A stretch of 64,000 bases of DNA from an uncultured Acidobacteriota bacterium. Its GTDB lineage: Bacteria; Acidobacteriota; Thermoanaerobaculia; UBA5066; Gp7-AA6. Of this stretch, positions 24,263 to 47,640 are shown in pieces. Position numbers and translations under genes: made by a program. The stretch's first letter is position 1, and each line of letters begins with the position of its first letter. The notes beneath the pieces were generated by a model that made no database searches, was not told the origin of the DNA, and saw only the letters and a list, made by a program, of their open reading frames with translations. The stretch is taken from positions 586,178 through 650,177 of the forward strand of contig CAVXRK010000004.1 in assembly GCA_963764025.1 (NCBI GenBank). Direction: 5' to 3'.

Positions 24263-24571
24263 TCAGGTCACCGAGCCCATCCGCCGCAGCGACTCGAAGG
24301 AATAGATCCCGTCGTTGTGGCCGTCGGCCCAGTCGATCTGCAGGGCGTAGGAGCCGACCCAGCGGTGGGCCGCCGCCTGGACCGAGAGTGGCGTGAGTGG
24401 TCGGTCCGGCCCGCGGTAGACCTTGCCGAAGAGGTCGGGCTCCCCCTTGCACATGGCGCACGGGCAGGCGCGGCGGAGCTTCTCGAGCGAGAGGTAGTCC
24501 TCGCGTCCGTCGTCCCAGACGATCACGAGCTCCTGGCCCAGAACCATGACCTGCTTCGGGACCGAGATCAC
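24263..24571 (-). CDS. DUF971-family small protein, GTGA-coupled to the kinase K1 stop
   Basis: (GTG)ISVPKQVMVLGQELVIVWDDGREDYLSLEKLRRACPCAMCKGEP...SYALQIDWADGHNDGIYSFESLRR. The kinase TGA and this GTG overlap in cgGTGAtc. Confidence 0.6.
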   Translation of the reverse strand: MISVPKQVMVLGQELVIVWDDGREDYLSLEKLRRACPCAMCKGEPDLFGKVYRGPDRPLTPLSVQAAAHRWVGSYALQIDWADGHNDGIYSFESLRRMGSVT

Positions 24572-27171
24572 CGAATGCCCTCGGCGAGGAAGAGGTCCGA
24601 GAGGATGCGGTTGTAGGAGTAGACGTACGCCTTCCCGTCGGGCGTCAGCGCGGGCGGCGAGAGCGTGCTGATCCCGGCGGGGTCGAGCGGAACCAGTTCC
24701 CTCCAGAGCTCGCGCTTGCCCGTGGCGAGATCGATCCGGTAGACCCGGCCCGGCAGGGCTCCCCGGTCGAAGGCGAACAGCGCGCGATCGCCGGCCCAGC
24801 CCGTCGGATCTTCCTGCGCCTCGAGGCCCGGGATCGGCGCCGGCTCGCCGCCGTCGAGCGGATACAGATAGCGCCGTCGATCGGGCCCCTGGACGGCCGC
24901 CAGTCGGCCATCGGGCGAAATGGCGCGCAGGAAGGCCCGGTAACCCGCCGGCGAGACGGCCCGCGGTTTTCCTTCGGCGCCATCGAGAAGGAACAGGCGA
25001 CTGCCCTTGCCCGGCTCGCGGGCGGTCAGGAGGATCCGCTTTCCGTCGGGAAACCACTCCGCACCCGATGCAACGAGATCCCCGGTCGGGACGGTCCTCG
25101 CTTCTCCCGCTCCGGCCGGCAGGACGACGACCTTCGGACCGGTCCCAACGTTGGTGACGCCGAGGACCCAGCGGCCGTCCGGAGAGATCGACATGGGGAC
25201 GCCCTCTCCCAACCGCACCGGGGGCGACCCGTCCATGCGCCTCAGGTAGGCCGAATAGCCGGCGCCTCCGCCCTCTCCGGACTCGACGAACACGAACGAC
25301 TTCCCGTCCGGCGAGATGTCCCGGACGCCGGACCAGTCGAGCCATGAAAGGTCCTTCTCCCGCGAGTCTCCCGGCGAGAATCCGAGGATTCCGGAGCGCA
25401 GCGTGTCGTGGGCGATGAGCACCCGCCCGTCCTTCGCGACGTCGTGCAGCGTAAGATTTCCGGTGACCCGCGCGACGACACGGTGGGCGCCGGCCCGGTT
25501 GACGGCATGGAGCGCGCGGTTTCCGCCGACATCTGCTGCCGTGAACCAGACCTCCCGGCCCCGAGGCCCCCACGCCAGACCGCCGGCCGTGGAGAATCCC
25601 GTCGCGAGCGTCTTCAACTTTCCGGAGGCGTCGACGACCGCGATCGAGCCGCCGTCGTCGCCAATGGTCGGGTGGTCGATGAAGGCGACAAGGTCCCCCG
25701 TCGGCGACACGCGCACGTTGCTGACCCAGCCCGTGGTCTCGTAAAGGACCTTGCCGACGGGATACTCGATCCGGTTCCTCGCCCCGACGAGGCGGACGAT
25801 CGCGAGGGTCTGTCCGTCCGGCGCCCAGTCCGCGAAGAGCACGTCGTCCTGGATCTCCCGGGGGGTCCCGCCGCCCGTCATCCCGATCCGCGCGAGCATC
25901 CCGCCGTACTCGAAGGGCCCGACAAAGTGGCGGTTGAGATTCACGGCCATCTCGCCCGAGGCCGAAATGGAGAGAAGGTCCGCCCCCGCCAGCCCGAAGG
26001 GCCGCGCTTCCGGGCTGTCCAGGCGGCTGACGAAGATCTCGATCGGACGGCCCTCCCAGCCCGCGGCATAGATCACTGTCTGGCCGTCGGGCGCGAACCG
26101 GGCATTCATGATCTCGCCGCGCTGGAACGTCAGCTCGCGGAAAGACGGCGGCGTAACGGTCCCCGCTTTTCTTCCGACCGCGAACGCGGCCACGCCGACC
26201 ATCGCCGCCAGAACGGCCGCGCCGAGGAGCCAGGGCCAGCGGCGCCGGCCCGAGCGCACCGCCGCCGCGGCCGCGGCCGTCTGGTCCGTCGTCGTCGAGA
26301 ACGAGGCTTCCGAGAGGTGGTCGCGCACGTCGGCGAGGTCGCGCGCCAGATCCTTCGTCGTTCCGAACCGGTCCTCGGGGTCCTTCGCGAGACAGCGCTC
26401 GACGAGCCACCGCACGGGCGACGGCACTTTCGGGTTGACCTGTCCGACGGGGTCCGGCTCTTCCCGGATGATCGCCGTCAGCGTCTCGGCGGTCGTCGAT
26501 CGCTCGAAAGCGCGCTTGCCCGTCGCGAGCTCGTAGACGATCGAGCCGAAGGAGAACTGGTCGGAGCGAAAGTCGACGACCCGTCCCGCGGCCTGCTCGG
26601 GCGACATGTAGCCGACCGTTCCCATGACCATGCCCGGCCGCGTCGGATCTCCGACCGCCGTCCTCAGGGCCGAGACCTCCTGGTCCTCCGGCGTCACGAG
26701 CTTGGCGAGGCCGAAGTCCAGGATCTTCGCGAACCCGTGCTTGGAGACCATGACGTTCTGCGGTTTGAGGTCGCGGTGCACGATTCCGGCGGCGTGGGCC
26801 GCCGCGAGGCCCTCGGCGATCTGCACCGAGATTTCGAGAAGCTTCTTGACGGGCACCGGACCGGAGGCCGAAAGGTCCTTCAGCGTCCCGCCCTCGACGA
26901 GCTCCATGGCGATGTAGATGGTCGAATCGTGGGAGCCGATGTCGTAGACGGTCAGGATGTTCGGATGCGAGAGGCCCGAAGCCGCGCGCGCCTCCCGCTC
27001 GAAGCGGGAACGCCGCTCGGGATCAGACGCGAGCTCGGGAGGCAGCACCTTGATCGCGACGTCGCGCTTGAGACGCTCGTCGCGCGCGCGGTACACCTCC
27101 CCCATCCCTCCCGCACCGATTGGCACGAGGATCTCGTAGGGGCCGAGCTTCGTTCCGGCGGCGAGCGTCAT
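24568..27171 (-). CDS. Ser/Thr protein kinase with TM helix and C-terminal TolB/PD40-like beta-propeller (K1, intact, divergent subtype)
   Basis: 867 aa. [43 protein letters not shown]...HRDLKPQNVMV..DFGLAK...GTVGYMSPEQ; TM WPWLLGAAVLAAMVGVAAFAV; then repeated ..SPDG../..PDGK.. blades. Confidence 0.9.
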   Translation of the reverse strand: MTLAAGTKLGPYEILVPIGAGGMGEVYRARDERLKRDVAIKVLPPELASDPERRSRFEREARAASGLSHPNILTVYDIGSHDSTIYIAMELVEGGTLKDLSASGPVPVKKLLEISVQIAEGLAAAHAAGIVHRDLKPQNVMVSKHGFAKILDFGLAKLVTPEDQEVSALRTAVGDPTRPGMVMGTVGYMSPEQAAGRVVDFRSDQFSFGSIVYELATGKRAFERSTTAETLTAIIREEPDPVGQVNPKVPSPVRWLVERCLAKDPEDRFGTTKDLARDLADVRDHLSEASFSTTTDQTAAAAAAVRSGRRRWPWLLGAAVLAAMVGVAAFAVGRKAGTVTPPSFRELTFQRGEIMNARFAPDGQTVIYAAGWEGRPIEIFVSRLDSPEARPFGLAGADLLSISASGEMAVNLNRHFVGPFEYGGMLARIGMTGGGTPREIQDDVLFADWAPDGQTLAIVRLVGARNRIEYPVGKVLYETTGWVSNVRVSPTGDLVAFIDHPTIGDDGGSIAVVDASGKLKTLATGFSTAGGLAWGPRGREVWFTAADVGGNRALHAVNRAGAHRVVARVTGNLTLHDVAKDGRVLIAHDTLRSGILGFSPGDSREKDLSWLDWSGVRDISPDGKSFVFVESGEGGGAGYSAYLRRMDGSPPVRLGEGVPMSISPDGRWVLGVTNVGTGPKVVVLPAGAGEARTVPTGDLVASGAEWFPDGKRILLTAREPGKGSRLFLLDGAEGKPRAVSPAGYRAFLRAISPDGRLAAVQGPDRRRYLYPLDGGEPAPIPGLEAQEDPTGWAGDRALFAFDRGALPGRVYRIDLATGKRELWRELVPLDPAGISTLSPPALTPDGKAYVYSYNRILSDLFLAEGIR

Positions 27172-27182
27172 TGGGAGCGGGG

Positions 27183-27192
27183 GGATTCTACC
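27183..27192 (-). promoter_or_regulatory. GGTAGAATCC motif (TAGAAT -10-like) 12 nt upstream of K1 ATG
   Basis: Coding-strand ggtagaatccccccgctcccaATG. The same motif recurs 10-14 nt upstream of the K3 and K7 start codons. Confidence 0.3.
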
Positions 27193-27198
27193 GGAGGC

Positions 27199-29780
27199 CT
27201 ACTTCAGGCCTTCGACGAGCTGGAGGTAGGACAGCACCCGCAGATAGCTGTACGCGTAGAAGCGGCCGTCGGGGGTGGTGACGAAGCGGCTGGCGCCGGC
27301 CAGACCCGCAGCATCGGCTGGCGAGACTTCCTTCCAAAGGTCGAGCCGGCCAGTGGCCGGGTCGTACCTGGAGACCTGCATCGGGAGCCGGTTGGCGTCC
27401 TGCACGAAGAGACTCCGCCCGTCCGGCGTCCAACGGATCGGGCGATGGATGGAGGTGAGGCCCGGGAGGGCCGTGGGCTCGCCGCCCCCGACGGCGTAGA
27501 GATAGATCCGCTGATCCGGGCCGCTCACGACGACGGACTTTCCGTCGGGCGTCACGGTCCCCCGGAACAGCGAGTAGCCCTCTGGAGATATCGCACGGGC
27601 CTTCGCTCCCGCGATGTCTCGCACGTACAGCCGTGTTCCGCGGCCGGCCTCGGACGCGGTGAAGATCAGGCTCTTCCCGTCCGGAAGAAAGTCGGCGTTG
27701 AACACGTCGAGGCCATCGTGCGAAAGCGCCCGGGGCTCCCCCACGCTCGTGGGGAGCATGTGAATCTGCGGTGTGGCCGTGTGGGTGATCGCAATCGCCC
27801 ACGCGCCGTCGGGCGAGAACGCCTCGGTCGAGCCATCGCCGAGCCGCACCGCCGGCGAGCCGTCGAAGCCCCGCAGGTACGCGGAGTAAGAGGGACCTCC
27901 CCCTCTCCCGACTCCGTGATGAGGATCTTGCTGCCGTCGGAGCGGATGTCGGTCACGAGCGAGTAGTCGAGCCACGACAGCTCCCGTTCCTTCGCCTCTC
28001 CCGGCCCGAGCGCAAGAATTCCGAGACGGGCGCTCTCGTTGGTCATCAGCACCCGCCCCTGCTGTGAGATGTCACGAATCGTGCTGATCCCGGGCACGCG
28101 CCCGACCAGGCGCACTTTTCCGGAAAGCGTGACGCCGTGCACGGCCCGATTGAAGCCGCCCACCGCCGCGGTGTACCAGATCTCGCCGCCGTCCGGCCTC
28201 CAGACGAGGCCCTGGGCCGTCGCATAGAGGGGCGACACGTCCCGCTTCTTCCCGGCCCGATCCACGACTGAGACAACCCCCCCGTCGTCGTTGGGGACCT
28301 GATGGTCGAGGAAGGCGACGAGCCCTCCGTCCGGGGAGACCCGAGGGTGGCTGATCCAGCCCGAGGTCTCGTAGAGAACCTTCCCGATCGGAAACTCGAC
28401 GCGACACTTCGGACCGACGTCCCGGACGATCGCCAGGTCCTTCCCGTCCGGCGACCAGTCCGCGAACTGGACGTCGTCGAGGATGTCGCGCGGTGCGCCG
28501 CCCGCGATCGAGATTCGCGCGAGCCGACCCGTCGTCACGAACGCCTTCGTGCGACGGGGAGCCAGCTTGATCGCCATCTCACCGGACCTCGAGATGGCGA
28601 GAACCTCGGCTGGGGGCAGGCCGAAGGGCCGGGATTCCGGGCTCTCCGGCCGGTTGATGAAGATCTCGAAGGGTGCCCCTTCCCAGGCGGCGGAATAAAC
28701 GACCGTCTGGCCGTCCGGCGCGAAGAGCGAACCGGCAACCTCGCCGCGCGAGAAGGTTATCTGGTGAAACTCCGGCGGTTCGACGACGCCGGCCTTCTTG
28801 CCGGCGGAGTAGATGAACGGCGATGCGATGGCCGCGCCGAGGACCGCCGCGAGCGCCAGCGCGGCCCAGGGCCGTTTCTTCCCGGCCGCCGGCAGGGCGC
28901 GCACGCCGGTCGTCGTCGCTCCGGAGAGGCTCGACAGCGCCTCGAGGTCGAACGCGACGTCGCGGGCCGACTCGAAGCGTTCTTCGGGGTTCTTTTCCAG
29001 GCAGTGGCGAACGATCCGGTCGAGGCCCGGGTGGACGTCCTTGTTCGTCGTCGAGAGATCCGGCGGCTCTTTCGTCAGGATCGCCGTGATCGTGTCCGCC
29101 GCCGTGTCCCCGCGGAAGGCGCGCTGGCCCGAGAGCATCTCGTACAGGATCGTCCCGAAGGCGAAGAGGTCCGACCGCTTGTCCGCGGCCTTCCCGCGCA
29201 CCTGCTCGGGCGCCATGTAGCCCATCGTCCCGAGCACGACGCCGGGCTGCGTGCCGCCGGAGACGGTGCCCATGTCCGTCTGTCCGCTCTCGTCCTGCTG
29301 GGTCTTGAGCTTCGCGAGCCCGAAGTCGAGAATCTTGACCCGGCCGTCCTTCGTCAGGAAAAGGTTCTCGGGCTTCAGGTCCCGGTGGACGATCCCCTTC
29401 TCGTGCGCCGCCGCGAGCCCGCGGGCAATCTGGACGGCGTAGTCGATTGACTTGCGCACCGGGAGCGAACCCGTCAGCAGCCGCGCACGCAGGGTCTCCC
29501 CTTCGAGGAGCTCCGTGACGATGTACGGGGCGCCGTCGTGCGTGCCGAAGTCGTAGACCGCGGTGATGCCGGGATGGTTCAGGACCCCCGCCGCCCTCGC
29601 TTCCTGCTCGAACCGCTTGAGGCGATCCGGGTCCTGCGAGAAGGTTGCGGGCAGGACCTTGATCGCGACCTCGCGGCCGAGACGCGGATCCTTGGCCCGG
29701 TAGACCTCTCCCATCCCCCCCGCCCCGATCGGCGCGAGGACCTCGTACGGCCCGAGCTTCGAGCCCGCAACGAGCGTCAT
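27199..29780 (-). pseudogene. STK-TolB propeller kinase paralog K2 (subtype A), single -1 frameshift in a G-run near 27895
   Basis: N-terminal 704-aa [47 protein letters not shown]...[16 protein letters not shown].. reads to ..ILITESGEGE and then shifts. The C-terminal 258-aa ORF continues GGGPSYSAYLRGFDGSPAVRLG...LQLVEGLK in another frame. Confidence 0.75.
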
Positions 29781-32361
29781 TTCAAACCGTCGACCAGGTA
29801 GAGGTCCGAGAGCGTCCGCTGGAAGCCGTAGACGTAGGAAGCGCCATCGGGAGTGGTGATGATGGGTGCGATGTCCACGATTCCCGACCCGTCGGCTGGC
29901 ATGACTTCGCGAACGAGCTCCTTCTTTCCGCTGGCGAGGTCCAGCCGATACAGGCGCCCGGGGAGGTCGCGGCGGCGGTAGACGTAGAGGGACTTACCGT
30001 CCGCGCCCCACCCGCCCGGCGACTCGTCGTCGGCGAGTCCCGGGACCGGCGCGGGCTCCCCGCCGGCGAGCGGATAGAAGTAGCGTTTTCGGTCGGGCCC
30101 GCTGACCAGGACCCGGGCGCCGTCCGGCGTCACGCCGCGGGAGAACGATCGGTAGCCCTCCGGGGTCAGCGCCCGCGGTTTTCCGCCGTCGATCGCGATG
30201 ACATAGATGCGCGGTCCCCGATCCGGCTCGTTCGCCGTGAAGACGATGCTCTTTCCGTCGGGCGTGAACGAGCTCCCGCCCTGGGTCTCGAGATCACCCG
30301 TCGCCAGGACCTTTTTCTCGCCGGCCCCCGTCGGATAGAGCGTGATCGTGCGCTTCGGGCGTCCGACCTGGACCGCGGCCCACTGGCCGTCGGGCGACAG
30401 CGCCTGGCCGCCGCCCTCGCCGAGGCGGACCGGAGGCGCGCCATCCGTGCTGCGAATGAAGGTCGAGTACGCCGGGCCGGAGCCCTCGCCGGTCTCGGAA
30501 AAGAGAATCGTCTTCCCGTCATTCGAAAGGTCGAAGAGCGACGACCAGTCGAGCCAGGCGAGCTCCTTCTCCTTGGGCTGGCCTCCTTTTCCGGCGAGGA
30601 TCCCGATGCGGATCGAGTCGTGCGCGACGAGAACGCGCCCGTCCCGCGACACATCCTGCAGCGTGAGGCTCTGCGTCACACGGGCGAGAAGGCGCTCTCC
30701 GCCGTCCAATGAGAAGGCGTGAATGGCCCGATTGCCGCCGACCTTCGCCCCGGTGACCCAGATCTCCTTCCCGCTCGGCGACCATGCGAGGCCGTATTCC
30801 GACGAGAACTCTCCGGCGAGCGAGGTCTTTTTTCCCGACCGGTCGACGACCGCGACCACCCCGCCGTCGTCCCCGCGCTGCGGGTGATCGAGAAAGGCGA
30901 CGTGATTCCCGTCGGGCGAGACCCGCGGATGGCTGATCCAGCCGGCGGTCTGGTAGAGCATCTTGCCCGCGGGAAATTCGAGCTGGTTGCGCAGGTTCAC
31001 GTCCCGGACAATCGCCAGGTCCTTGCCGCCCGGCCCCCAGTCCGCCCACTGCACTTCCTTGTGGATCTCGCGGGGAGCGACGCCACCGCTGACCCCGACT
31101 TCTGCGAGCGTCCCGCTCCGGGTGAACGGTCCGTCGTTGTGGCGATCGAGCGAAACCGCCATTTCCCCGCTCTCCGAGATCGCCAGCAGGTCCGCGCCGA
31201 CGAGGCCGAAGACTCGCGACTCGGGGCGATCCGTCCGGGTCGAGAAGAGCTCGACCGGCCTTCCGTCCCATGCGGCCGCGTAAACCACCGTTTGCCCGTC
31301 AGGCGCGAACCTCGCGGAGTAGACCTCGCCGCGCCGGAAAGTCAGCTGCTGGTAGTTCGGCGGTGGGACGTAGCCCGCCTTCTTGCCGTACCGAAATCCG
31401 GCCGCCAGGCCCGCGGCGATGCCGACCGACGCGGCCAGAAGGGCCGGCCCGATCCAGCGCGACCTCTTCGACACCACGGGCGTCGAAACCGCACCCGTCT
31501 GCGTCGAGATGCTCGAGAGCGACTCCAGGTCGAACGCGACGTCGCGCGCCGACTCGAACCGCTCCTCCGGGTTCTTCTCGAGGCAGTGGCGAACGATCCG
31601 GTCGAGCCCCGGGTGGATTTCCTTGTTGGTCTGCGACAGGTCCGGCGGCTCCTTCGTCAGAATCGCCGTGATCGTGTCCGCCGCCGTGTCGCCCCGGAAC
31701 GCGCGCTGACCGGCCAGCATCTCGTAGAGGATCGTCCCGAAAGCGAAGATGTCCGACCGCCGGTCGGCCGGCTTGCCGCGCACCTGCTCCGGCGCCATGT
31801 AGCCCATCGTCCCGAGCACGACGCCCGGCTGCGTGCCGCCCGAGACCGTTCCCGCATCCGTCTGGCCGGTCTCGCCGCCCTCGATCTTCAGCTTCGCGAG
31901 GCCGAAGTCGAGGATCTTGACCCGCCCGTCCTTCGTCAGGAACAGGTTCTCGGGCTTCAGGTCCCGGTGGACGATCCCCTTCTCGTGCGCCGCGGCGAGT
32001 CCCTTCGCGATCTGGACGGCGTAGTCGATGGCCTTGCGCACCGGGAGCGACCCGGAGAGGAGTCGCGCCCGGAGCGTCTCGCCCTCGAGAAGCTCCGTGA
32101 CGATGTACGGAGCGTCGTCGTGCGTCCCGAAGTCGTGGACCGCCGTGATGTTGGGGTGGTTCAGGACCCCGCGGCCCGCGCCTCCTGCTCGAAGCGCTTC
32201 AGCCGGTCCGGATCCTGCGAGAACGACGCCGGCAGCACCTTGATCGCCACCTCGCGGCCGAGGCGCGGGTCCTTCGCCCGGTAGACCTCTCCCATCCCTC
32301 CGGCGCCCAGCGGCGCGAGGATCTCGTAGGGACCGAGCTTGTTTCCGGCGGAGAGCGTCAT
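29777..32361 (-). pseudogene. STK-TolB propeller kinase paralog K3 (subtype A), 1-bp deletion in a G-run near 32165
   Basis: 66-aa N-terminal [47 protein letters not shown]...EQEARAAGS*; the correct continuation [15 protein letters not shown]... is in the next frame. The 754-aa ORF then carries the rest of the kinase, the TM helix and the propeller (...LYLVDGLK). ATGA overlap with K2. Confidence 0.75.
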
Positions 32362-32387
32362 TAAGGCGGCAGGATTCTAACCGCGAA

Positions 32388-34962: not shown

Positions 34963-37553
34963 TTCAATCCTTCGACCAGGTACAAGTTCGAGAGGTTCCG
35001 GAAGTAGCTGTAGGCATAGGCGCCGTTCGGCGCGTTGACCGGAAGGCGATCAGACTGTTGATCCCGGTCGCGTCGGACGGAAAGAACTCGCGCCAGAGCT
35101 CCTCCCGGCCGGTGTCCGGGATCGAGCGCGAAAAGCCGCATCGGCATCTCGGTCGAGGTCCCCTTGCGCACGAGGATTCGACCGTCCGGGGTCCAGCCCG
35201 CGAGCGAAGACGTCGTCTCGTATCCCGGCACCGGCTTCGGCTCTCCTCCGTCGACCGAGACGACGAATGCCTCGCCCTTCGGTCCCCTTAAGGCGACACG
35301 CTTTCCGTCCGGCGAGACCAGGATCCCCCGGTAGCCCTCCGCGGTCAGCGGCCGCGGTGCGCCGCCCTCGGCGTCGAAGACGTACGTTCGCGCGCCGCGT
35401 GCCCTTTCTCGACGGCGACGCGCGAGAAAGTGCCGCCCGTCGGGCAGCCATCGGGCGATCCGAACGGCGAGATCCGCCGTCCGGGACCTTCTTCGCTTCG
35501 CCGGCGCCCGTCGGATACACGACGATCTCGGGCGCGTCGGGCGCGCCCACGAACGCCAGCACGCGCTTGCCGTCGGCCGAAATGGATTGGGCGTTGCCCT
35601 CTCCCAACCGCACCGCCGGCGAACCGTCGATCGCGCGCAGGTAGACCGAATAGCCCTTTCCTCCGCCCTCGCCCGCTTCGCTGAAAAGCACGGATCGCGC
35701 CGTCGGCGGAGATGTCCGGCATAAGGCTCCAGTCGAGCCAGCTCAGGTCGATTTCCTTCGCGTCGGCCGGCGCCGCGGGCGAGGATGCCGATCTGTCCGG
35801 TGTCGTGCGAGATCAGGACGCGGCCGTCCCGCGATGACGTCCTCGAGCGTCAGCGATCCCGCGACGCGGGCGAGCGTGCGAGTCCGGCCCGAAAGCGTGG
35901 CGGAATGGAGAACACGGTTGCTGCCGACCTCCGCCGCCGTGAACCAGACCTCCGAGCCGTGCGGGCGACCAGGCGAGCCCGTTCGACGACGCGTAGACCG
36001 GGCGAGATGGTCGTCTTTCTTCCCGGCGCGGTCGACCACGGCGACGGATCCGCCGTCATCGTTGACGGCGGGATGGTCCAGGAAAGCGATCCGGGCGCCG
36101 TCGGGCGAGAACCGGGGGTTGCCGATCCAGCCCGCGGTCTCGTACAGGACCTTTCCCGTCGGGAACTCGAGCCGGCACTTGCGGTTCAGGATCCGCACGA
36201 TCGCGAGGTCCTTGCCGTCGGGGGACCAGTCGGCGTACTCGACGTTCTCGAGGAGCTCGCGCGGCGCGCCGCCGGTCGCGCTGACCCGCGCGAGCGTGCC
36301 GGTACGCGTGAAGGCCGTGTCGAAGTCGGCTTTGAGGATGACGGCCACCTCTCCCGATGCGGAGACGGCGGCGACGTCGGCGCCGGGAAGGCCGAACGGC
36401 CGCGACTCGGGGCTGTCGGGCCGGCTGACGTAGATCTCGGCCGGCTTTCCGTCCCAGGCCGCCGTCGTCAGGATCGTTTTTCCGTCGGAGCCGAAGCGCG
36501 CGCCCCAGATGGCGCCCTTGCGGAAGGTGAGCTGGCGGAAGGTCGGGGGCTCGGCTCGTTCCCTTCCCGTGGCCGAGGAAGTAGCCCAGGGCGACGGCCG
36601 CCGCGAGAGCGGCGGCGCCGACGGCGTACGGAACGACGCGCGCCCGGGCCGGCCGATCGGGCACCGCCGAAACCGCCGTCGACGCCGGTCGTGCCCGACA
36701 GCGCCTCGAGATCGAACGCCAGGTCGTGCGCCGAGTGGAAGCGCTCCTCGGGATTCTTTTCGAGGCAGTGCCGCACGACGCGGTCGAGCCCCGGCGCGAC
36801 GTTCTTGTTCGTCGCCGAGAGGTCCGGCGGGTCCTCCCGCAGGATCGCCGACATCGTCTCCGCCGCCGAGTCGCGGTGGAAGGCGCGCGAGCCCGAGATC
36901 ATCTCGTAGAGGACGGCGCCGAACGAGAAGATGTCCGAGCGCGCGTCGGCCTTCTTTCCCTTGACCTGCTCGGGCGCCATGTAGCCGAGCGTGCCGAGGA
37001 CGACGCCGGGCTCGGTGCCGTCGGCGGTCGGCAGGTTCGTCTGCGGCCCGGCCGCGCCGTCGGCCTGCGTCAGCTTGGCGAGACCGAAGTCGAGGATCTT
37101 GACCCGGCCGTCGTTCGTGACGAAGAGGTTCTCGGGCTTCAGGTCCCGGTGAACGATCCCCTTCTCGTGCGCCGCGGCGAGCCCGCGGGCGACCTGGATC
37201 GCGTAGTCGGTGGCCTTGCGCACGGGCAGCGCGCCGCCCGAGAGCCTCGCCCGCAGCGTCTCGCCCTCGAGGAGCTCCGTGACGATGTACGGCGAACCCT
37301 CGAACGCGCCGAGCTCGTAGACCGAGGTGATGTTCGGGTGGTTGAGCCCGCCGGCCGACTGCGCCTCCTGCTCGAACCGGCGCAGGCGCTCGGGGTCCTG
37401 CGCGAACGACGAGGGCAGCACCTTGACCGCGACGTCCCGCTTCAGCCGCTCGTCGCGCGCCCGGTAAACCTCGCCCATCCCTCCGGCGCCGAGGAGGCCG
37501 AGGACCTCGTAAGGACCCAACTTCGTCCCGGCGGCGAGACTCAAAGGGACCAC
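34959..37553 (-). pseudogene. STK-TolB propeller kinase paralog K5 (subtype B), multiple frameshifts
   Basis: N-terminal 361-aa kinase ORF (..[53 protein letters not shown]..). Propeller pieces in two other frames (..[24 protein letters not shown]..; ..MLFSEAGEGGGKGYSVYLRAIDGSPAVRLG..; ..LYLVEGLK). ATGA overlap with K4. Confidence 0.7.
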
Positions 37554-37698
37554 CGCACTTTCTGCCCGTCATTCCGAGGAGCGAAGCGACGAGGAATCCC
37601 GCGCTCGACGCGCCGCCGGGTGGTCCGAGCCCGGGATGCCTCGCTGCGCTCGGCATGACGGCGAGTGTCGAGAATCAATTTCAACCCTTCTAACCGAC

Positions 37699-40270
37699 TC
37701 ATTTGAGGTTCTTCACCTGATACAGCGTCGAGAGAACCCGAACGACCCCGACGATCACCGTCCGACCGTCCGGCGTCACGCGCACCGGTCCGAAGGAGGT
37801 CACACCCCCGGAATCGCCGCCGGAGAGCTCCCGGACTCGGGTCCGACGGCCGGAAGCGATGTCGATCAGGTCGAGCTTGCACGGGATCCCCTGCTGGGAG
37901 ACGTACAGGCCCTTCCCGTCCGCCGTCCATCCCGCCGGCGAGTCCGCGGGCAGGGAGGCCGCCAGATCGGTCGCGGACCCTCCGCCGAGCGGGTAGAGGT
38001 GCACCCGCGTATCCGGGCCGATGGCGGCGATCCAGCGCGAGTCCGGAGAGACGAAGTGACGCGCCGAGGAGATTCCCTCCTGGCTGATCGCTTTCGGCGC
38101 GCCTCCGGCGAGGTCCTGCACGTAGAGGCGGCTCCCCCGCCCCGGGGCGTTCGCCACGAATACGAACTTCGTTCCGTCTGGAACGAAGGCCCCATACGAC
38201 GTTCGTCCGAGGTCGTCGGGCGGAAAAGACTTCGGCTGTCCGATCTTCACCGGCACGAGCACGAAGTGCTGCGGATTCGAAAACACCCGGGTCAGCGCCC
38301 ACGCGGAATCGGGCGACAGGGCGATTCCGACGCCGTCACCCAGCCGAACGGCGGGAGCGCCGTCCGTCGGCCGCAGGTACACTCCGCCCGCCGGCCCTCC
38401 GCCTTCCCCCGACTCGTCGAACAGCATGAGCTTGCCGTCCACCGAGAGGGCGCGGTCGCTCGACCAGTCGAACCAGGTCAGATCCTTCCCGGCCGGCTCC
38501 CCGGGCCCGAAGACGGCCACGCTCGACCGGTAATCGTCCTCCGTGATCAGAGCGCCTCCGTCCTTCCTCACGTCGAGAAGCGCCGGAGTTCCCTGCATCG
38601 TCCGGATCAGCCGGAGCTTGCCCGCCGGAGTGACGCCGTAGACCATGCGCTCGATGCCTTCCCGCGCCGCCGTGAACCAGATTTCGCGACCGTCCGGCGA
38701 CCACGCCAGGCCCTGCACCGTGGCCCATCCTTCGGAGAGATCGGTCTTCTTGCCGGCGAGATCGACGATCGCGATCGCGCCGTCGTCTCCCGCCGAAGAG
38801 TGGTCGATGAACGCGATCCTGCGTCCGTCCGGAGCAAAGCGCGGATTCTGCATCCAGCCCGCCGTCTCGTAGAGAACCTTGCCGATCGGATATTCCAGTC
38901 GATCCTTGCCTCCCGTGCGGCGCATCACGGCGAGCTCGGACCCTCCCGGCGCCCATTCGGCGTAGCCGACGTCGGCCAGCACTTCCTTGGGAGCTGCGCC
39001 CGACAGCGGCACTCGGGCGAGCGTCCCGTGGAGCGCGAAGCCGTTCACGTTGTAATTCGGCTCGAGCAGGACCGCCATCTCGCCGGAGGACGAGATCGAC
39101 AACAGTTCCGCCGCCGGCAGCGGAAGCGTGGAGGATTCCGGGTTCCCGGGTCGCAGCGAGTAGATCCGGGGAGCAGCCCCGCTCCAGGCGGCCGTGTAGT
39201 AGACCGTGCTGCCGTCGGGCCCGAATCGCGCCGTGCTGACGGTGCCGCGCTGAAACGTCAGGCGCTGAAAGGTCGGCTGTGTCGACGATCCGGTGCGGCG
39301 GCCGCGCGTACAGCCCCAGGAGGGCGCCCACGACGGCCGCCAACCCCAGAAGAGCCCAGGGCCGTCGCGCGCGTTTCGCGGGGAGCGCCCGCACGCCCGT
39401 GATCGCCGGTGACGACAGACCCGAAAGCGCTTCGAGATCGAAGGCGACGTCCCTCGCCGACTCGAACCGCTCCTCCGGATTCTTCTCGAGACAGTGCCGC
39501 ACGATCCGGTCCAGCCCGGGTGGCACGTCCTTGTTCGTCTGCGAAAGATCCGGCGGCTCCTTCGACAGGATCGCCGTGATCGTGTCCGCCGCGGTGTCGC
39601 CGCGAAACGCCCTCTGCCCCGAGAGCATCTCGTACAGGATCGTCCCGAAGGCGAAGAGATCGGACCGCTTGTCGGCCGACTTCCCGCGCACCTGCTCGGG
39701 CGCCATGTAACCCATCGTCCCGAGCACGACTCCCGGCTGAGTCCCGCCCGAGACCGTTCCGGCGTCCGTCTGACCGCTCTCCGCGCCGTCCAGCTTCAGC
39801 TTCGCGAGGCCGAAGTCGAGGATCTTGACCCGCCCATCCTTCGTCAGGAACACATTCTCGGGCTTCAGGTCGCGGTGGACGATCCCCTTCTCGTGCGCGG
39901 CCGCGAGACCCTTCGCGATCTGCACGGCATAGTCGATCGCTTTGCGCGGCGAGATGGCGCCGGGCCCGAGCCGGCTGCGCAGAGTCTCGCCTTCGAGGAG
40001 CTCCGTGACGATGTACGGCGCGTCGTCGTGCTCGCCGAAGTCATAGACCGCCGTGATGTTCGGATGGTTCAGCGCCCCGGCCGCCTGGGCCTCCTGCTCG
40101 AAGCGCTTCAGGCGATCCGCGTCCTGCGAAAACGACGCCGGCAGCACCTTGATCGCCACGTCGCGCTTGAGCCGCTCGTCCCGCGCGCGGTAGACCTCCC
40201 CCATCCCGCCCGCCCCGATCGGCGAGAGGATCTGGTAGGGACCGAGCTTCGTGCCGGCGGCCAGGGTCAT
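37699..40270 (-). pseudogene. STK-TolB propeller kinase paralog K6 (subtype A), single +1 insertion near 39270
   Basis: 644-aa N-terminal ORF ([44 protein letters not shown]...TM..TADL) and 467-aa C-terminal ORF (..[16 protein letters not shown]...VLSTLYQVKNLK). An extra T in gaccTTTcag separates them; correcting it gives [27 protein letters not shown]. Confidence 0.75.
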
Positions 40271-40271
40271 T

Positions 40272-40480: not shown

Positions 40481-40585
40481 CGGTCTGACGACCGGCGTCA
40501 AGCTCGGCGTCGCCTCCGGCAGGCGGTCTGCCTTCGGTGGCCGGCTCCACGGTCCGCGAAGCGGACCGCTAGAGGTCCGTGCCAT

Positions 40586-43165
40586 CTACCGGAGACCATC
40601 CACGACGTAGAGATCCGCGAGACTGCGCGCGAAGGAGTAGGCGTAGTACTTCTCGTCGGGCGTGATCCAGACTGGCGAGATCAGCCAGATGCCGGCCGGG
40701 TCGGGAGGCATGAGCTCTTTCCAGAGCTCCTTGCGACCCGTGGCGACATCGAGCTTCATGACGCGCTGCGGCACTTCTCCGCGGACGCGCACGAACAGGA
40801 AGCGGCCGTCGGCAGTCCAACCGCTCGGAATGTCTCCCTTCACGAGCCCCGGGATCGGCGCTGGCTCTCCGCCCGCGACCGGATAGAGATAGAAGCGCTG
40901 GTCCGGGCCGACCACCGTCAGAGCCTTGCCATCGCGAGAGCCTCCCCTCGCGAACATCCGGTAGCCCTCCGGTGAGACGGGCTTCGGTTTCGCGTCGTCC
41001 AACCCCTGCACCCAGAGGCGCGACCCGCGATCCGGCTCGCTTCCGGAGAAGACGATCCGGCGGCCGTCCGGCAGCCAGTCCGCCTGCTCGATCCGGATCG
41101 CCGTCGCCGGCAGCATCTTCGGCTCGCCCGCGCCTATCGGATAGATCGCGAAGCGATAGAGCGCGCCCTGCTTGACGATCCCGAGCGCCACGCGGCCATC
41201 CGGAGAAAATTCCGCGGCCACGCCGCCCCCGAGTCGCACCGCGGGCGACCCATCCGCCTTCCGAACGTAGACGGTGTTACCGCCCGAGCCTTCGCCGCTC
41301 TCGTCGAAGAGCAGCGTCTGGCCGTCGGGAGTGACGTCGCGAATGAGCGACCAGTCGAGCCAGGCGAAGTCGCGTTCCTTCTCTCCACCGGGGAGCAACC
41401 CGGAGATCCCCTGGCGGGCTTTCTCCTGCGTGACGAGCACTCGCCCGCTCTTTGCGACGTCCTGGATCGTGAAACCGCCGGTCCCCTGGGCGAGGATTCG
41501 GACTCGGCCGGAGCGGGAGGCGGCGCAGAGCGCCCGCGTGAAGCCCTCCTTCGCCCCCGTGAACCAGACCTCGGAGCCGTCCGGCGACCACGCGAGCCCC
41601 TGTGCGCTGACGAAGAGGCCGGAGATCACGACTCGCTTACCCGAGCGGTCGACGATCATTGCCGTTCCCGCGTCGTCGCCCTGAGCCGGGTGGTCGAGAA
41701 ACGCCACCTCGTCGCCCTTCGGCGAGACCCGCGGATGGGAGATCCAACCGGCGGTCTCGTACAGGACCTTGCCGACGGGATACTCGAGCCGGACCTTTCC
41801 GCCCTGCTGCCGAACGATGGCGAGACTCTGGCCGTCCGGGGCCCAATCGGCCCACAGCACGTCCTCGAGGACCTCCTTCGGCGTGCCGCCGCCCGTCATG
41901 CCGAGGCGCGCGAGCGTGCCGGTACGAGTGAACGGGATCGAGCCGTGGCGATTCAGCGACACCGCCATCTCTCCGGAAGGCGAGACCGCCAGCACCTCCG
42001 CGTTCGCCAGGCCGAACAGGCGCGACTCCGGATTGTCCAGCCGCGAGACGAACACCTCCATGGGGCGGCCGTCCCAGTTCGCCGAGTACAGGATCGTCTG
42101 TCCGTCCGGAGCGAAGCGCGCGGAGGCCATCACGCCCCGCCGGAACGTGAGCTGGTGAAACGTCGGCGGCGGCACGTATCCGGCGCGCTTCCCGACCCAG
42201 TAGGCCGCCGCGATTGCCGCGAGCGCAACGCCGACGCCGACCAGAAGCGGCAGGCGGCGGCCTCCGACCGGCACGCGCAACTTTTCGAGAGTGGGCTTTG
42301 AAGCGGAGGACCCGGAGAGCGCCTCGAGATCGAAGGCGAGGTCGTGTGCCGAGTGGAACCGCTCCTCGGGGTTCTTCTCCAGGCAATGGCGCACGACGCG
42401 CTCGAGGCCCGGCTGCACGCTCTTGTTCGTCGCCGACAGATCCGGCGGCTCCTCCCGCAGAATGGCCGACATCGTCTCGGCCGCGGTGTCCCGATGGAAA
42501 GCGCGAGCGCCCGAGAGCATCTCGTAGAGCACCGCCCCGAACGCAAAAATGTCGGAGCGCGCGTCGGCGGTCTTGCCCTTGACTTGCTCCGGCGACATGT
42601 AGCCGAGCGTCCCCATCACGACGCCCGGCTCCGTCGCCGGAGGCGCGGTCGGGAAATTCGTCTGCGGACCCACCGCGCCGTCGGCCTGCGTCAGCTTGGC
42701 GAGACCGAAGTCCAGGATCTTGATCCTCCCGTCGTTGGTCACGAACACGTTCTCGGGCTTGAAGTCCCGGTGAACGATTCCTTTCTCGTGCGCCGCGGCG
42801 AGGCCCCGGGCCATCTGGATCGCGTAGTCCGTGGCCTTCCGCACGGGAAGGGCTCCCCCGGAGACGCGGGCGCGCAGCGTCTCCCCCTCGAGAAGCTCGC
42901 TGACGATGTATGGAGAGCCCTCGTAGGAACCCAGCTCGAACACCGCGGTGATGTTGGGATGGTTGAGCGACCCTGCGGCCTGCGCCTCCTGCTCGAACCG
43001 CTTGAGGCGATCGGTGTCCTGCGTGAACGACGGTGGGAGGACCTTGACCGCGACGCTGCGTTTCAAACGCTCGTCCCTGGCGCGGTAAACCTCGCCCATT
43101 CCCCCGGCGCCGATCGGCGCGAGGATCTCGTAGGGGCCGAGCCTTGTTCCCGAGGACAGCGTCAT
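40586..43165 (-). CDS. Ser/Thr protein kinase with TM helix and C-terminal TolB/PD40-like beta-propeller (K7, intact, subtype B)
   Basis: 859 aa from ATG (cat at 43163-43165). [44 protein letters not shown]...HRDFKPENVF..DFGLAK..; TM LPLLVGVGVALAAIAAAYWV; propeller to ..LYVVDGLR. GGGTAGAATCG lies 14 nt upstream. Confidence 0.9.
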   Translation of the reverse strand: MTLSSGTRLGPYEILAPIGAGGMGEVYRARDERLKRSVAVKVLPPSFTQDTDRLKRFEQEAQAAGSLNHPNITAVFELGSYEGSPYIVSELLEGETLRARVSGGALPVRKATDYAIQMARGLAAAHEKGIVHRDFKPENVFVTNDGRIKILDFGLAKLTQADGAVGPQTNFPTAPPATEPGVVMGTLGYMSPEQVKGKTADARSDIFAFGAVLYEMLSGARAFHRDTAAETMSAILREEPPDLSATNKSVQPGLERVVRHCLEKNPEERFHSAHDLAFDLEALSGSSASKPTLEKLRVPVGGRRLPLLVGVGVALAAIAAAYWVGKRAGYVPPPTFHQLTFRRGVMASARFAPDGQTILYSANWDGRPMEVFVSRLDNPESRLFGLANAEVLAVSPSGEMAVSLNRHGSIPFTRTGTLARLGMTGGGTPKEVLEDVLWADWAPDGQSLAIVRQQGGKVRLEYPVGKVLYETAGWISHPRVSPKGDEVAFLDHPAQGDDAGTAMIVDRSGKRVVISGLFVSAQGLAWSPDGSEVWFTGAKEGFTRALCAASRSGRVRILAQGTGGFTIQDVAKSGRVLVTQEKARQGISGLLPGGEKERDFAWLDWSLIRDVTPDGQTLLFDESGEGSGGNTVYVRKADGSPAVRLGGGVAAEFSPDGRVALGIVKQGALYRFAIYPIGAGEPKMLPATAIRIEQADWLPDGRRIVFSGSEPDRGSRLWVQGLDDAKPKPVSPEGYRMFARGGSRDGKALTVVGPDQRFYLYPVAGGEPAPIPGLVKGDIPSGWTADGRFLFVRVRGEVPQRVMKLDVATGRKELWKELMPPDPAGIWLISPVWITPDEKYYAYSFARSLADLYVVDGLR

Positions 43166-47622: not shown

Positions 47623-47640
47623 GGGCGGAAACTATCAGCA

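What the first reader, a model, noticed from the sequence alone, without database searches (positions are those of the whole stretch)
24568..43165. 18.6-kb head-to-tail array of seven paralogous Ser/Thr kinase-TolB-propeller genes plus a remnant
Eight consecutive minus-strand units share one architecture. Each has a Hanks kinase domain (GxGxx[19 protein letters not shown] all present), a single TM helix and a periplasmic PD40/TolB-like beta-propeller. Junctions are 4-bp ATGA overlaps or gaps of about 26 nt. Three sequence subtypes are interleaved: K2, K3 and K6 are subtype A; K4, K5 and K7 are subtype B; K1 is more divergent. Within a subtype, N-terminal identity is roughly 85-90%, which implies recent duplication or gene conversion. 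Such transmembrane receptor kinases with propeller ectodomains are expanded in Acidobacteria. A contiguous seven-member array could act as a hypervariable sensing locus, but this is an interpretation, not something shown by the sequence.
Basis: partly seen in the sequence, partly recalled or inferred. Interest (0 to 1): 0.85.

Follow-up and report, generated by a model that had tools for sequence, protein, structure and literature searches.

The report
Seven tandem receptor kinase genes
A soil-type Acidobacteriota genome carries seven neighbouring genes for membrane sensor kinases with a double-propeller outer domain; this is an ordinary, widespread gene family, the broken reading frames are probably sequencing errors, and the mildly interesting point is that related strains swap the outer sensor part between otherwise near-identical genes.

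Summary
The array is real, but it has seven units, not eight (24568-43165, minus strand). The 'remnant' is the C-terminus of unit U2 after a frameshift. Each unit encodes about 860 aa: a Hanks kinase with all catalytic motifs, one TM helix, and a roughly 525-aa ectodomain modelled as two TolB/PknD-like propellers.

As assembled, only U1 and U7 are intact. U2-U6 carry 17 frameshifts, which are most likely long-read assembly errors:
- Each coincides with an indel against near-identical sister contigs, and the sisters carry different indels.
- Substitutions sit mainly at third codon positions.
- Syntenic arrays in relatives are intact.
- Genes outside the array are also split.

The kinase subtypes are confirmed (A = U2, U3, U6; B = U4, U5, U7; U1 divergent). 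'Recent duplication or conversion' is not supported: dS is 0.43-0.84, no 300-nt stretch exceeds 89% identity, and individual units have orthologues elsewhere.

The locus is an old cluster between the same flanking genes, with 4, 6, at least 5, or 7 copies in relatives. Kinase and ectodomain modules reassort. A strain with a 99% identical U1 kinase and flanks carries a TM-plus-ectodomain cassette only about 73% identical.

The family and its tandem arrays are common in Acidobacteriota, so this is a new member of a known kind, of moderate interest.

The parts
40586..43165 (-). U7: intact receptor Ser/Thr kinase gene, 859 aa. Kinase is aa 1-282 (subtype B, HRDFKPEN variant), TM helix about aa 307-325, double-propeller ectodomain aa 336-859.
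37699..40270 (-). U6: kinase (subtype A) plus the most divergent ectodomain. One frameshift at about 39304, a 1-nt insertion in the juxtamembrane/TM region.
   Evidence: The extra base is absent from sister contig L001, where the gene is an intact 856-aa ORF.
34959..37544 (-). U5: kinase (subtype B, TTG or upstream GTG start) plus ectodomain. About 10 frameshifts as assembled. Its stop overlaps the U4 start by 4 bp.
   Evidence: The indels are window-specific relative to L001, which has its own different indels. Substitutions by codon position are 35/19/80 in the ectodomain and 7/2/30 in the kinase.
32388..34962 (-). U4: kinase (subtype B, GTG start here, ATG in L001) plus ectodomain. Four 1-nt insertions at 34863, 33740, 33355 and 32967.
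   Evidence: All four are absent from L001. Substitutions are 2/1/35 in the kinase and 2/4/19 in the ectodomain. The orthologue in L087 is intact at 96%/82% aa for kinase/ectodomain.
29777..32361 (-). U3: kinase (subtype A) plus ectodomain. One missing base at about 32166-32172 near the N-terminus. Its stop overlaps the U2 start (ATGA).
   Evidence: Both sister contigs L001 and L082 have the extra base.
27199..29780 (-). U2: kinase (subtype A) plus ectodomain. One missing base at about 27902-27904.
   Evidence: L082 has the extra base, and its ectodomain is 99% aa identical.
24568..27171 (-). U1: intact gene, 867 aa. Divergent kinase (HRDLKPQN, SPE), TM about aa 315-333, ectodomain aa 337-867. 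The block from about 24600 to 26280 (TM plus ectodomain) is the cassette replaced in strain L082.
   Evidence: Mosaic pattern shown.
24263..24571 (-). GBBH-like_N (DUF971) gene, 102 aa. Its GTG start overlaps the U1 stop (GTGA). It is the conserved downstream partner of the array.
   Evidence: The same gene follows the last kinase in L082, L086 and L087.
43178..43186 (-). GGTAGAATC motif 12 nt upstream of the U7 ATG, a possible -10-like element.
   Evidence: Inference only.
32373..32381 (-). GTTAGAATC motif 11 nt upstream of the U3 ATG, in the 26-nt spacer.
27184..27192 (-). GGTAGAATC motif 12 nt upstream of the U1 ATG, in the 27-nt spacer.

Best explanation
The locus is a bank of seven functional single-pass receptor Ser/Thr kinases of an Acidobacteriota bacterium, probably of class Thermoanaerobaculia.

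Architecture. Each protein has a cytoplasmic Hanks-type kinase, a juxtamembrane linker, one TM helix, and a periplasmic sensor built from two tandem propellers. Each propeller aligns to six-bladed TolB/PknD-like folds.

Mechanism (inferred). By analogy with PknD and PknB, binding of a periplasmic ligand to the propellers drives dimerisation and trans-autophosphorylation. The active kinase then phosphorylates unknown cytoplasmic targets. Seven different ectodomains (41-55% identical) would give seven ligand specificities feeding into three kinase types.

Frameshifts. The 17 frameshifts in U2-U6 are errors of a long-read metagenome assembly, concentrated where co-occurring strains differ. They are not pseudogenisation.

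Evolution. The cluster is old and sits at a fixed chromosomal position (S9 peptidase | array | GBBH-like_N, CGNR, ECF sigma/anti-sigma, SRP RNA, dnaX). It evolves by gain and loss of units and by recombination at the kinase/juxtamembrane boundary. This reassorts kinase and TM-ectodomain modules within and between genomes.

Shown: the anatomy, intact motifs, purifying selection, synteny, copy-number variation and the mosaic breakpoints. Inferred: ligand sensing, dimerisation-driven activation, the downstream targets, and that the frameshifts are errors.
For: Anatomy
- Pfam Pkinase plus PD40.
- Motifs and a single TM helix in all seven units.
- AF2 ectodomain model with pLDDT 89.9 and pTM 0.82, all-beta with about 40 strands.
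- Foldseek best hits are double-propeller proteins.

Frameshifts are errors
- 16-17 of the 17 coincide with 1-2-nt indels against sister contigs L001 (96% nt) and L082. The sisters carry their own different indels where the window is in frame.
- U6 is an intact 856-aa gene in L001.
- Substitutions between strains are dominated by the third codon position even in U4 (2/1/35 and 2/4/19) and U5 (7/2/30 and 35/19/80).
- No in-frame stops remain after correction.
- Syntenic arrays in L085, L086 and L087 consist of intact 846-867-aa genes.
- Genes outside the array are split too: a MacB-like permease, an M20 peptidase and dnaX, which is an intact 548 aa in L087.
- The sister assemblies come from a series that yields 4.1-4.3-Mb metagenome contigs, which implies long reads.

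Old cluster
- dS is 0.43-1.2 between copies.
- Orthologues of individual units exist at 60-92% identity.
- The same flanks enclose 4, 6 or 7 copies.

Module exchange
- Kinase and ectodomain trees are incongruent.
- U7-type ectodomains are joined to A, B or U1-like kinases among 120 homologues.
- The U1 cassette 26280-24600 is about 73% nt identical between >=97% flanks. The two ectodomain classes are each 92% identical to a class in another genome.

Mechanistic analogy
- Dimerisation-driven activation of PknD and PknB is described in PMC6213207.
Against: - No read data were available, so the frameshifts cannot be proven to be errors.
- U5 has by far the most indels in both assemblies. It also has a somewhat relaxed substitution pattern: (pos1+pos2)/pos3 is 0.68, against about 0.15-0.3 in U7, U4 and U2 but 0.83 in U6. 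U5 could therefore be a genuine decaying copy.
- No ligand, substrate, FHA protein or PP2C phosphatase was identified in the window.
- No family member has been characterised experimentally.
- No promoter or terminator signal was found above chance.
- The sister contigs are metagenome consensus sequences and could themselves blend strains.
Confidence: 0.7

Rival explanations
1. Partly dead array. U1 and U7, and perhaps U2, U3 and U6, are functional. U4 and especially U5 are true pseudogenes decaying by indels in this lineage.
For: - 14 of the 17 frameshifts lie in U4 and U5.
- U5 is also the region with the most indels in the independent L001 assembly (24 indel events) and the highest divergence (92.5% against 97-98% elsewhere).
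- Its first- and second-position substitutions are relatively more frequent.
- A genuine small kinase remnant exists in the related array L086.
Against: - All four U4 frameshifts and nearly all U5 frameshifts are absent from the sister strain, which has different ones.
- Substitutions remain biased to the third position. U4 shows 2/1/35 and 2/4/19.
- There are no in-frame stops, and all catalytic motifs are intact in U4 and U5.
- The U4 orthologue is intact in L087.
- Genes outside the array, including a likely split in dnaX, show the same kind of damage.
Confidence: 0.17
2. Recently amplified, concerted-evolution or contingency locus. The copies arose by recent tandem duplication or are being homogenised by ongoing gene conversion, giving a hypervariable sensor locus.
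For: - Kinase domains within a subtype are 84-91% identical while the ectodomains are about 50% identical.
- Between strains, synonymous divergence is higher in kinase domains than in most ectodomains. For example, U4 kinase has 35/284 third-position differences against 19/519 in its ectodomain. This is compatible with occasional non-allelic conversion.
- Kinase and ectodomain trees are incongruent.
Against: - Kinase dS within subtypes is 0.43-0.84 and dN is 0.06-0.10, which points to old copies under purifying selection.
- The best nt identity is 89% over 300 nt and there are no long identical tracts.
- Each unit has closer orthologues in other species than any paralogue in the array.
- There are no near-identical repeat pairs of the kind a diversity-generating retroelement would need.
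Confidence: 0.08
3. Assembly artefact. One or two genes were expanded into a false tandem array, or the copies are not adjacent in the real genome.
For: The window clearly has base-level errors, and repeats are hard to assemble.
Against: - The copies differ by 11-40% at the nucleotide level and about 50% in ectodomain protein, so they cannot be expanded duplicates.
- Two independent contigs recover the same order: U7-U6-U5-U4-U3 kinase in L001, and U3-U2-U1-flank in L082.
- Intact arrays lie at the same syntenic position in contigs of 99 kb, 4.1 Mb and 4.28 Mb.
Confidence: 0.02

Closest known systems
Mycobacterium tuberculosis PknD (receptor Ser/Thr kinase with an extracellular six-bladed NHL beta-propeller; PDB 1rwi)
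   Same: - Same architecture: N-terminal Hanks kinase, juxtamembrane linker, single TM helix, extracytoplasmic propeller sensor.
- The activation logic is presumed the same, by dimerisation (PMC6213207).
   Different: - Here there are two tandem propellers (524 aa) rather than one.
- The repeats match PD40 and Tricorn_N profiles, not NHL. No NHL hit appeared.
- Sequence identity is 14%.
- The host is an acidobacterium, which by general knowledge is diderm, so the sensor would face the periplasm.
- The gene sits in a multi-copy tandem array.
- No ligand or substrate is known for either sensor.
TolB (Tol-Pal system periplasmic protein) and PD40 repeat proteins
   Same: - Pfam PD40 repeats are present.
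- JGI annotators label homologues 'Tol biopolymer transport system component'.
   Different: - It is not a TolB orthologue.
- It lacks TolB's N-terminal alpha/beta domain, since the model is all-beta.
- It is fused to a kinase and a TM helix.
- It has a double propeller.
- No Tol-Pal genes were identified among the window genes examined.
Expanded Ser/Thr kinase repertoires with tandem duplicates in Myxococcota, Planctomycetota and 'Ca. Solibacter usitatus'
   Same: - Large paralogous STK families in soil bacteria with complex lifestyles.
- Some duplicates lie next to each other.
- Many are membrane kinases with periplasmic repeat domains (WD40, TPR, PD40).
- Sources: PMC11032199, PMC3174227, PMC2877116.
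- Other Acidobacteriota loci fetched here hold 4-7 kinase genes within 22 kb.
   Different: - Those papers describe genome-wide counts and kinase trees.
- In the papers read here I found no description of this syntenic seven-gene locus, its copy-number variation, or cassette exchange at the juxtamembrane boundary.
- The library searched is limited.
Plant receptor-like kinase (RLK) tandem clusters (an analogy from general knowledge, not tested here)
   Same: Tandem arrays of single-pass receptor kinases with a conserved kinase domain, divergent ectodomains, birth-and-death evolution and unequal recombination.
   Different: Unrelated lineage and unrelated ectodomain folds. The resemblance concerns only the mode of evolution.

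Membership tests
Hanks-type (eukaryotic-like) Ser/Thr protein kinase, Pfam PF00069 | Pkinase profile match above the gathering score | tested here: met
   U1, U6 and U7 score 169-180 bits against a cut-off of 31.7. All seven units align over the whole domain.
Hanks-type (eukaryotic-like) Ser/Thr protein kinase, Pfam PF00069 | Catalytic motifs: Gly-rich loop, VAxK lysine, HRDxKxxN catalytic loop, DFG, APE/SPE | tested here: met
   All are present in U1-U7. Variants are HRDLKPQN in U1 and HRDFKPEN in U7, the latter also in sister P0001.
Hanks-type (eukaryotic-like) Ser/Thr protein kinase, Pfam PF00069 | Phosphotransfer activity or autophosphorylation | not testable with these tools
   Needs biochemistry.
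Receptor-type STK (PknD-like: kinase, TM helix, extracytoplasmic propeller) | Single TM helix between the kinase and the sensor domain | tested here: met
   One Kyte-Doolittle peak of 1.75-2.33 at aa 304-333 in every unit.
Receptor-type STK (PknD-like: kinase, TM helix, extracytoplasmic propeller) | Beta-propeller sensor fold | tested here: met
   [not shown]
Receptor-type STK (PknD-like: kinase, TM helix, extracytoplasmic propeller) | NHL-repeat sequence family of the PknD sensor | tested here: not met
   Pfam reports PD40, Tricorn_N and DPPIV_N and never NHL. Identity to 1rwi is 14%.
TolB (Tol-Pal system) | Six-bladed PD40 propeller | tested here: met
   [not shown]
TolB (Tol-Pal system) | N-terminal alpha/beta TolA-binding domain, soluble periplasmic protein, tol-pal operon context | tested here: not met
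   The ectodomain model has no helices. The protein is membrane-anchored and fused to a kinase. The neighbours examined are an S9 peptidase, GBBH-like_N, CGNR and an ECF sigma factor, with no tol-pal genes among them.
Tricorn-type double propeller (Pfam Tricorn_N PF26549 / Tricorn_2nd PF26550) | Profile matches to both propeller families | tested here: inconclusive
   Precomputed hits on homologues are mostly flagged weak or faint. The Pfam copy used returned neither family. Foldseek lists tricorn 1k32 at E 1e-10 with TM 0.34.
Diversity-generating or contingency (hypermutable) locus | Near-identical template/variable repeat pairs, or simple-sequence tracts, driving targeted variation | tested here: not met
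   No direct repeat exceeds 89% identity over 300 nt and no long identical tracts exist. A reverse transcriptase was not specifically searched for.
Tandem paralogue cluster evolving by birth-and-death and module recombination | Variable copy number between conserved flanks, and incongruent domain phylogenies | tested here: met
   4, 6 and 7 copies lie between the same conserved flanks in L087, L086 and the window. L085 has at least 5 copies, but only its upstream side was seen. Kinase and ectodomain trees are incongruent. Mosaic breakpoints were mapped.

The most novel reading that the evidence does not exclude
The TM-plus-ectodomain part of these receptor kinases behaves as an exchangeable cassette in natural populations.
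- Near-identical strains (99% identical kinase and flanks) carry ectodomain alleles only about 75% identical.
- These allele classes are shared across species.
- The breakpoints fall repeatedly at the kinase/juxtamembrane boundary, in U1, U3 and U5.

This would mean that the sensor repertoire of these Acidobacteriota is kept polymorphic by recombination, possibly under frequency-dependent or niche-specific selection. It would be a bacterial counterpart of plant receptor-kinase clusters.
Probability: 0.4. Interest if true: 0.55.

Novelty: new member of a known kind. Interest (0 to 1): 0.35.

Why it matters
Acidobacteriota are among the most abundant soil bacteria, and what they sense is largely unknown. 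This locus shows that a widespread, uncharacterised class of receptor kinase (kinase, TM helix, double TolB-like propeller) is organised in a conserved but copy-number-variable cluster, and that its sensor cassettes are exchanged between strains. That offers a concrete handle for asking which periplasmic signals differ between co-occurring strains.

There is also a practical lesson. Five of the seven genes look like pseudogenes only because of indel errors in a long-read metagenome assembly, concentrated where strains differ. Pseudogene counts in such MAGs should not be taken at face value.

Tried and rejected
Look-ups that failed
- Exact-sequence look-ups of U7, of the 94-aa version of the GBBH-like_N protein, and of P0003 found nothing.
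- The anti-sigma factor and P0001, P0013, P0024 and P0121 did work.

Scans that found nothing useful
- The sigma-70 promoter scan found 0 sites in the array. Terminator-like sites were at chance level, 9 against 7.9 expected. No transcription-unit structure could be derived.
- Rfam and tRNA scans found nothing inside the array.
- Pfam on the N-terminal piece of the split M20 peptidase and on the C-terminal piece of dnaX gave no hits. Those two frameshifts rest on the codon-usage segmentation, on reading the sequence, and on the intact 548-aa dnaX in L087.
- Literature searches for ectodomain recombination or diversifying selection in bacterial Hanks kinases returned nothing specific.

Ideas rejected
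- An eighth unit or remnant.
- Recent duplication or ongoing gene conversion.
- Assembly expansion.
- A DGR-like mechanism.
- A link to the neighbouring ECF sigma factor as the kinase target. It has its own zf-HC2 anti-sigma factor, and nothing ties it to the kinases except conserved proximity.
- The GGTAGAATC motif as a statistically enriched element. There are 10 matches at <=1 mismatch against 7.9 expected. Only its fixed position upstream of U7, U3 and U1 is notable.
Full report
**1. What is in the sequence**

The window is about 64-73% G+C. tblastn with the two open copies maps seven, and only seven, co-linear full-length matches on the minus strand between 24568 and 43165:

| Unit | Coordinates |
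|---|---|
| U1 | 24568-27171 |
| U2 | 27199-29780 |
| U3 | 29777-32361 |
| U4 | 32388-34962 |
| U5 | 34959-37544 |
| U6 | 37699-40270 |
| U7 | 40586-43165 |

- U1 (867 aa) and U7 (859 aa) are open reading frames.
- In the other five units the match jumps between frames. A frameshift-aware protein-to-DNA alignment places 1 shift in U2, 1 in U3, 4 in U4, about 10 in U5 and 1 in U6. That is 17 in all: 13 are one extra base and 4 are two extra bases (equivalent to one missing base). The corrected proteins are 857-867 aa with no in-frame stop.
There is no eighth unit.
- The junctions, from U1/U2 to U6/U7, are 27 nt, a 4-bp overlap (ATGA), 26 nt, a 4-bp overlap (GTGA), 154 nt and 315 nt.
- A 102-aa GBBH-like_N (DUF971) gene overlaps the U1 stop by 4 bp.

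**2. Protein anatomy**

- Pfam finds Pkinase (E 1e-49 to 1e-52) and PD40 repeats (E 1e-11 to 1e-14).
- All seven units keep the Gly-rich loop, VA[IV]K, HRDxKxxN, DFG and [AS]PE. Each has one strongly hydrophobic 19-mer at aa 304-333.
- U7 has HRDFKPEN. So does its 99%-identical sister protein, while 117 of 119 homologues have HRDLKPEN. This is therefore a real substitution.
- An AlphaFold2 model of the U7 ectodomain (aa 336-859, 19-sequence alignment) is confident (pLDDT 89.9, pTM 0.82) and all-beta, with about 40 strands.
- Foldseek ranks double-propeller proteins first: 2ymu, LRP6 E3E4, tricorn, and ribosome-biogenesis and ciliary WD proteins. TM-scores are low because of inter-propeller geometry.
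- I conclude that the ectodomain is two tandem propellers, each aligning to six-bladed TolB-like folds. The blade count per propeller is inferred from these alignments and the strand count, not measured.

**3. Are the frameshifts real?**

Three independent lines say probably not.

*(a) Sister contigs.* P0001 is 99% identical to U7. It led to ENA contig L001, which aligns to window 44530-31514 at 96% nt. The anti-sigma factor downstream led to ENA contig L082, which aligns to 32367-21003.
- Every window frameshift that is covered coincides, within 15 nt or less, with a 1-2-nt indel against the sister: U6 39305; U4 34863, 33740, 33357 and 32966; U5 36683, 36560, 36018, 35961, 35834, 35768, 35698, 35476, 35114 and 35039; U3 32172 and 32168 (both sisters); U2 27904.
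- The sisters carry their own, different indels where the window is in frame.
- U6 is an intact 856-aa gene in L001.

*(b) Selection.* Substitutions between window and sisters fall mainly on third codon positions of the reconstructed frames, including in the damaged units.

| Region | Substitutions at codon positions 1/2/3 |
|---|---|
| U4 kinase | 2/1/35 |
| U4 ectodomain | 2/4/19 |
| U5 kinase | 7/2/30 |
| U5 ectodomain | 35/19/80 |
| U2 ectodomain | 2/3/42 |

*(c) Assembly quality.*
- Genes outside the array are split in the same way. A MacB-like permease has its MacB_PCD and FtsX domains in two overlapping frames. An M20 peptidase is split at about 3696. The dnaX C-terminus is split at about 20700, whereas a syntenic relative has an intact 548-aa dnaX.
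- Syntenic arrays in relatives are made of intact genes.
- The sister assemblies belong to a series that yields 4.1-4.3-Mb metagenome contigs, which implies long reads.

The indels cluster in U4-U5, and in L082 in U3. These are the places where strains differ by about 10%. My inference is that mixed-strain read pile-ups degrade the consensus there. At 73% identity (the U1 cassette) reads no longer cross-map, and both assemblies are clean.

A residual possibility that U5 is a true decaying copy remains. I give the pseudogene rival as a whole 0.17.

**4. Age and relationships of the copies**

Ectodomains are equidistant at 41-55%, including U1's.
- Nei-Gojobori estimates give kinase dS of 0.43-0.84 within subtypes (dN 0.06-0.10) and ectodomain dS of about 0.8-1.25 (dN 0.38-0.63).
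- The best DNA identity between copies is 89% over 300 nt.
- The best 120 database hits to U7 and to U1 are full-length proteins at 60-99% identity. That is closer than any paralogue in the array, which reach 52-61%.
- The copies are therefore old. High kinase identity reflects constraint, not recent duplication.

**5. The locus in relatives**

Names attached to homologues and loci point to Acidobacteriota, mostly class Thermoanaerobaculia. Three related genomes carry the cluster at the same chromosomal position.

| Locus | Source | Upstream | Array | Downstream |
|---|---|---|---|---|
| L087 | 4.1-Mb contig; flanks 83-88% nt to the window | S9 peptidase | kinase-TPR; U4 orthologue (96/82% aa for kinase/ectodomain); U2 orthologue (92/76); U1 orthologue (92/92) | GBBH-like_N, CGNR, ECF sigma, dnaX, ybaB, recR, Roadblock |
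| L086 | 4.28-Mb contig | S9 peptidase | six intact kinase-PD40 genes plus a small kinase fragment | GBBH-like_N, ECF sigma |
| L085 | 99-kb contig | MacB/HlyD/deaminase genes, as in the window | at least five intact genes with 4-bp overlaps | runs off the locus |

- Copy number between the same flanks is thus 4, 6 or 7, with at least 5 in L085.
- Tandem groups of 4-7 kinase genes within 22 kb, many with PD40 ectodomains, also occur in other Acidobacteriota MAGs.

**6. Module exchange**

Neighbour-joining trees of kinase and ectodomain for the 18 genes of the window, L085 and L086 are incongruent.

| Ectodomain type | Kinase attached |
|---|---|
| E4 | B kinase in the window; A kinase in L085_g4 (94% identical to the U3 kinase) and in L086_g2 |
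| E6 | A kinase in the window; U1-like kinase in L086_g1 |
| E7 | B kinase in the window and L085_g1; A kinase in L086_g3 |
| not E1 (54% to U1's ectodomain) | L086_g6, which has the U1-type kinase (82%) and lies next to GBBH-like_N |

- Among the 120 best homologues of U7, U7-type ectodomains (64-90% identical) are attached to B-type, A-type (up to 94% to the U6 kinase) or U1-like kinases.
- Identities are non-monotonic: P0003 is 98% in the kinase and 82% in the ectodomain, whereas P0002 is 88% and 90%.

Between near-identical strains the exchange is sharp.
- Window against L082 is 97-100% identical through the U1 kinase. It drops at about 26280-26250 (aa about 300, just before the TM helix) to 55-83% per 60-nt window, about 73% overall. 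It returns to 92-100% at about 24600, which is the U1 stop.
- Third-position differences are 249 of 530, and both alleles are open reading frames.
- The L082 ectodomain is 92% identical to that of P0122. The window's is 92% identical to that of P0121 (L087_g4). The two classes are therefore shared across species.
- In L001 the unit with the U3 kinase (94-99% aa) continues, after window position 31514 (aa about 282), into an ectodomain not present in the window. Its best match is 66%, to U4.
- The U5 ectodomain is 88-91% identical against 94-97% for its kinase, with the change at about 36733 (aa about 270).
- So in three units the divergence changes, sharply in U1 and U3, at the kinase/juxtamembrane boundary.
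- A chimeric consensus would need two switches at domain boundaries in each case. I consider real recombination more likely but not proven.

**7. Function**

Nothing in the window identifies a ligand or a substrate. By architecture and fold, the closest characterised system is PknD, a receptor kinase with a propeller sensor. For PknD and PknB, activation by dimerisation and trans-autophosphorylation is established (PMC6213207).

I therefore propose seven ligand-specific periplasmic sensors signalling through three kinase types. The 4-bp overlaps and short spacers suggest partial co-transcription (U5-U4, U3-U2, U1-GBBH-like_N).

A GGTAGAATC or GTTAGAATC motif lies 11-12 nt upstream of the ATG of U7, U3 and U1. 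It may be a -10-like element giving nearly leaderless mRNAs. This is speculation: the motif is not enriched overall, and the consensus promoter scan found nothing.

**8. Comparison with what is known, and verdict**

- PD40 is among the domains most often tethered to prokaryotic Ser/Thr kinases (PMC2877116).
- Kinase paralogue expansion is documented in 'Ca. Solibacter usitatus' (PMC3174227).
- Adjacent duplicated kinases are reported in myxobacteria, and membrane kinases with periplasmic repeat arrays in Planctomycetota (PMC11032199).
- The family here has thousands of database members, and the same cluster exists in public genomes.

The finding is therefore a new member of a known kind.

The part that might interest a specialist is the cassette-like exchange of TM-ectodomain modules between strains and species. 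It rests on a handful of metagenome contigs and needs read-level confirmation.

Scores: interest 0.35. Novel reading: probability 0.4, interest if true 0.55.

Noticed in passing
window 47679-48967 (-): A MacB-like ABC permease is split into two overlapping ORFs in different frames: MacB_PCD in 48050-48967 and FtsX in 47679-48092. Its neighbour at 46345-47631 has both domains in one 428-aa protein. This is probably another assembly indel.
   Followed up: partly
window ~3397-4599 (+): An M20/M25/M40 amidohydrolase changes frame at about 3696, inside the conserved '...RADMDALP...MHACGHDGH' region. The C-terminal piece matches Peptidase_M20 from profile position 18 onwards.
   Followed up: partly
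window 19920-22073 (-): This is the classical SRP RNA (21942-22041), dnaX, ybaB, recR cluster. The dnaX coding frame switches at about 20690-20790, and the zero frame runs on without a stop into ybaB. The syntenic relative L087 has an intact 548-aa dnaX. It is either an assembly indel or, less likely, a programmed frameshift site.
   Followed up: partly
window 43178-43186, 32373-32381, 27184-27192 (-); also 22065-22073 (-) and 62360-62368 (+): A G[GT]TAGAATC motif lies at a fixed 11-12 nt upstream of the start codons of U7, U3 and U1. Related GATAGAATC sites lie about 25 nt upstream of the SRP RNA and at the 5' end of the ORF that holds the FAD-binding monooxygenase gene. It may be the -10 element of this organism with very short leaders. 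It is not statistically enriched.
   Followed up: partly
window 44530 / L001 1-8415: Synteny with sister contig L001 ends inside the S9 (DPP-IV-like) peptidase gene at window 44530. In L001 the peptidase is a 371-aa fragment followed by unrelated genes (sigma-70, DPBB, a glpX fragment). This is a rearrangement or a chimeric contig.
   Followed up: no
window 23121-23401: The intergenic region between the ECF sigma factor gene and the CGNR zinc-finger gene is only 74% identical to L082, with 38 gap columns. The genes on both sides are 97-99% identical.
   Followed up: no
L086 12612-13165: The related six-gene array contains a genuine short kinase fragment (95-aa and 90-aa ORFs) between its third and fourth genes. 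Real remnants therefore do occur in this cluster in other genomes.
   Followed up: no
L087 2073-4763: In the four-gene version of the cluster, the first kinase carries a TPR ectodomain instead of propellers. Different sensor classes can therefore occupy the same array.
   Followed up: no
window 40586-43165 (U7), catalytic loop: U7 has HRDFKPEN (Phe instead of the near-universal Leu), shared with its sister-strain orthologue. 117 of 119 homologues have HRDLKPEN.
   Followed up: partly
window 13720-17754 (+): A CoxS/CoxL/CoxM-like molybdenum hydroxylase operon (2Fe-2S subunit, molybdopterin subunit, FAD subunit), identified by reading the translations. The same genes lie beyond recR and Roadblock in L087.
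   Followed up: no
window 18028-19262 (-): A Roadblock/LC7 (MglB-like) gene lies next to a gene that in L087 is an Arf/MglA-like small GTPase, directly downstream of recR.
   Followed up: no
window 51562-51638, 53620-53709, 56627-56701 (+): Three tRNA genes (Arg-ACG, Ser-CGA, Glu-CTC). A MafB19-like/dCMP deaminase gene at 51655-52119 follows tRNA-Arg.
   Followed up: no
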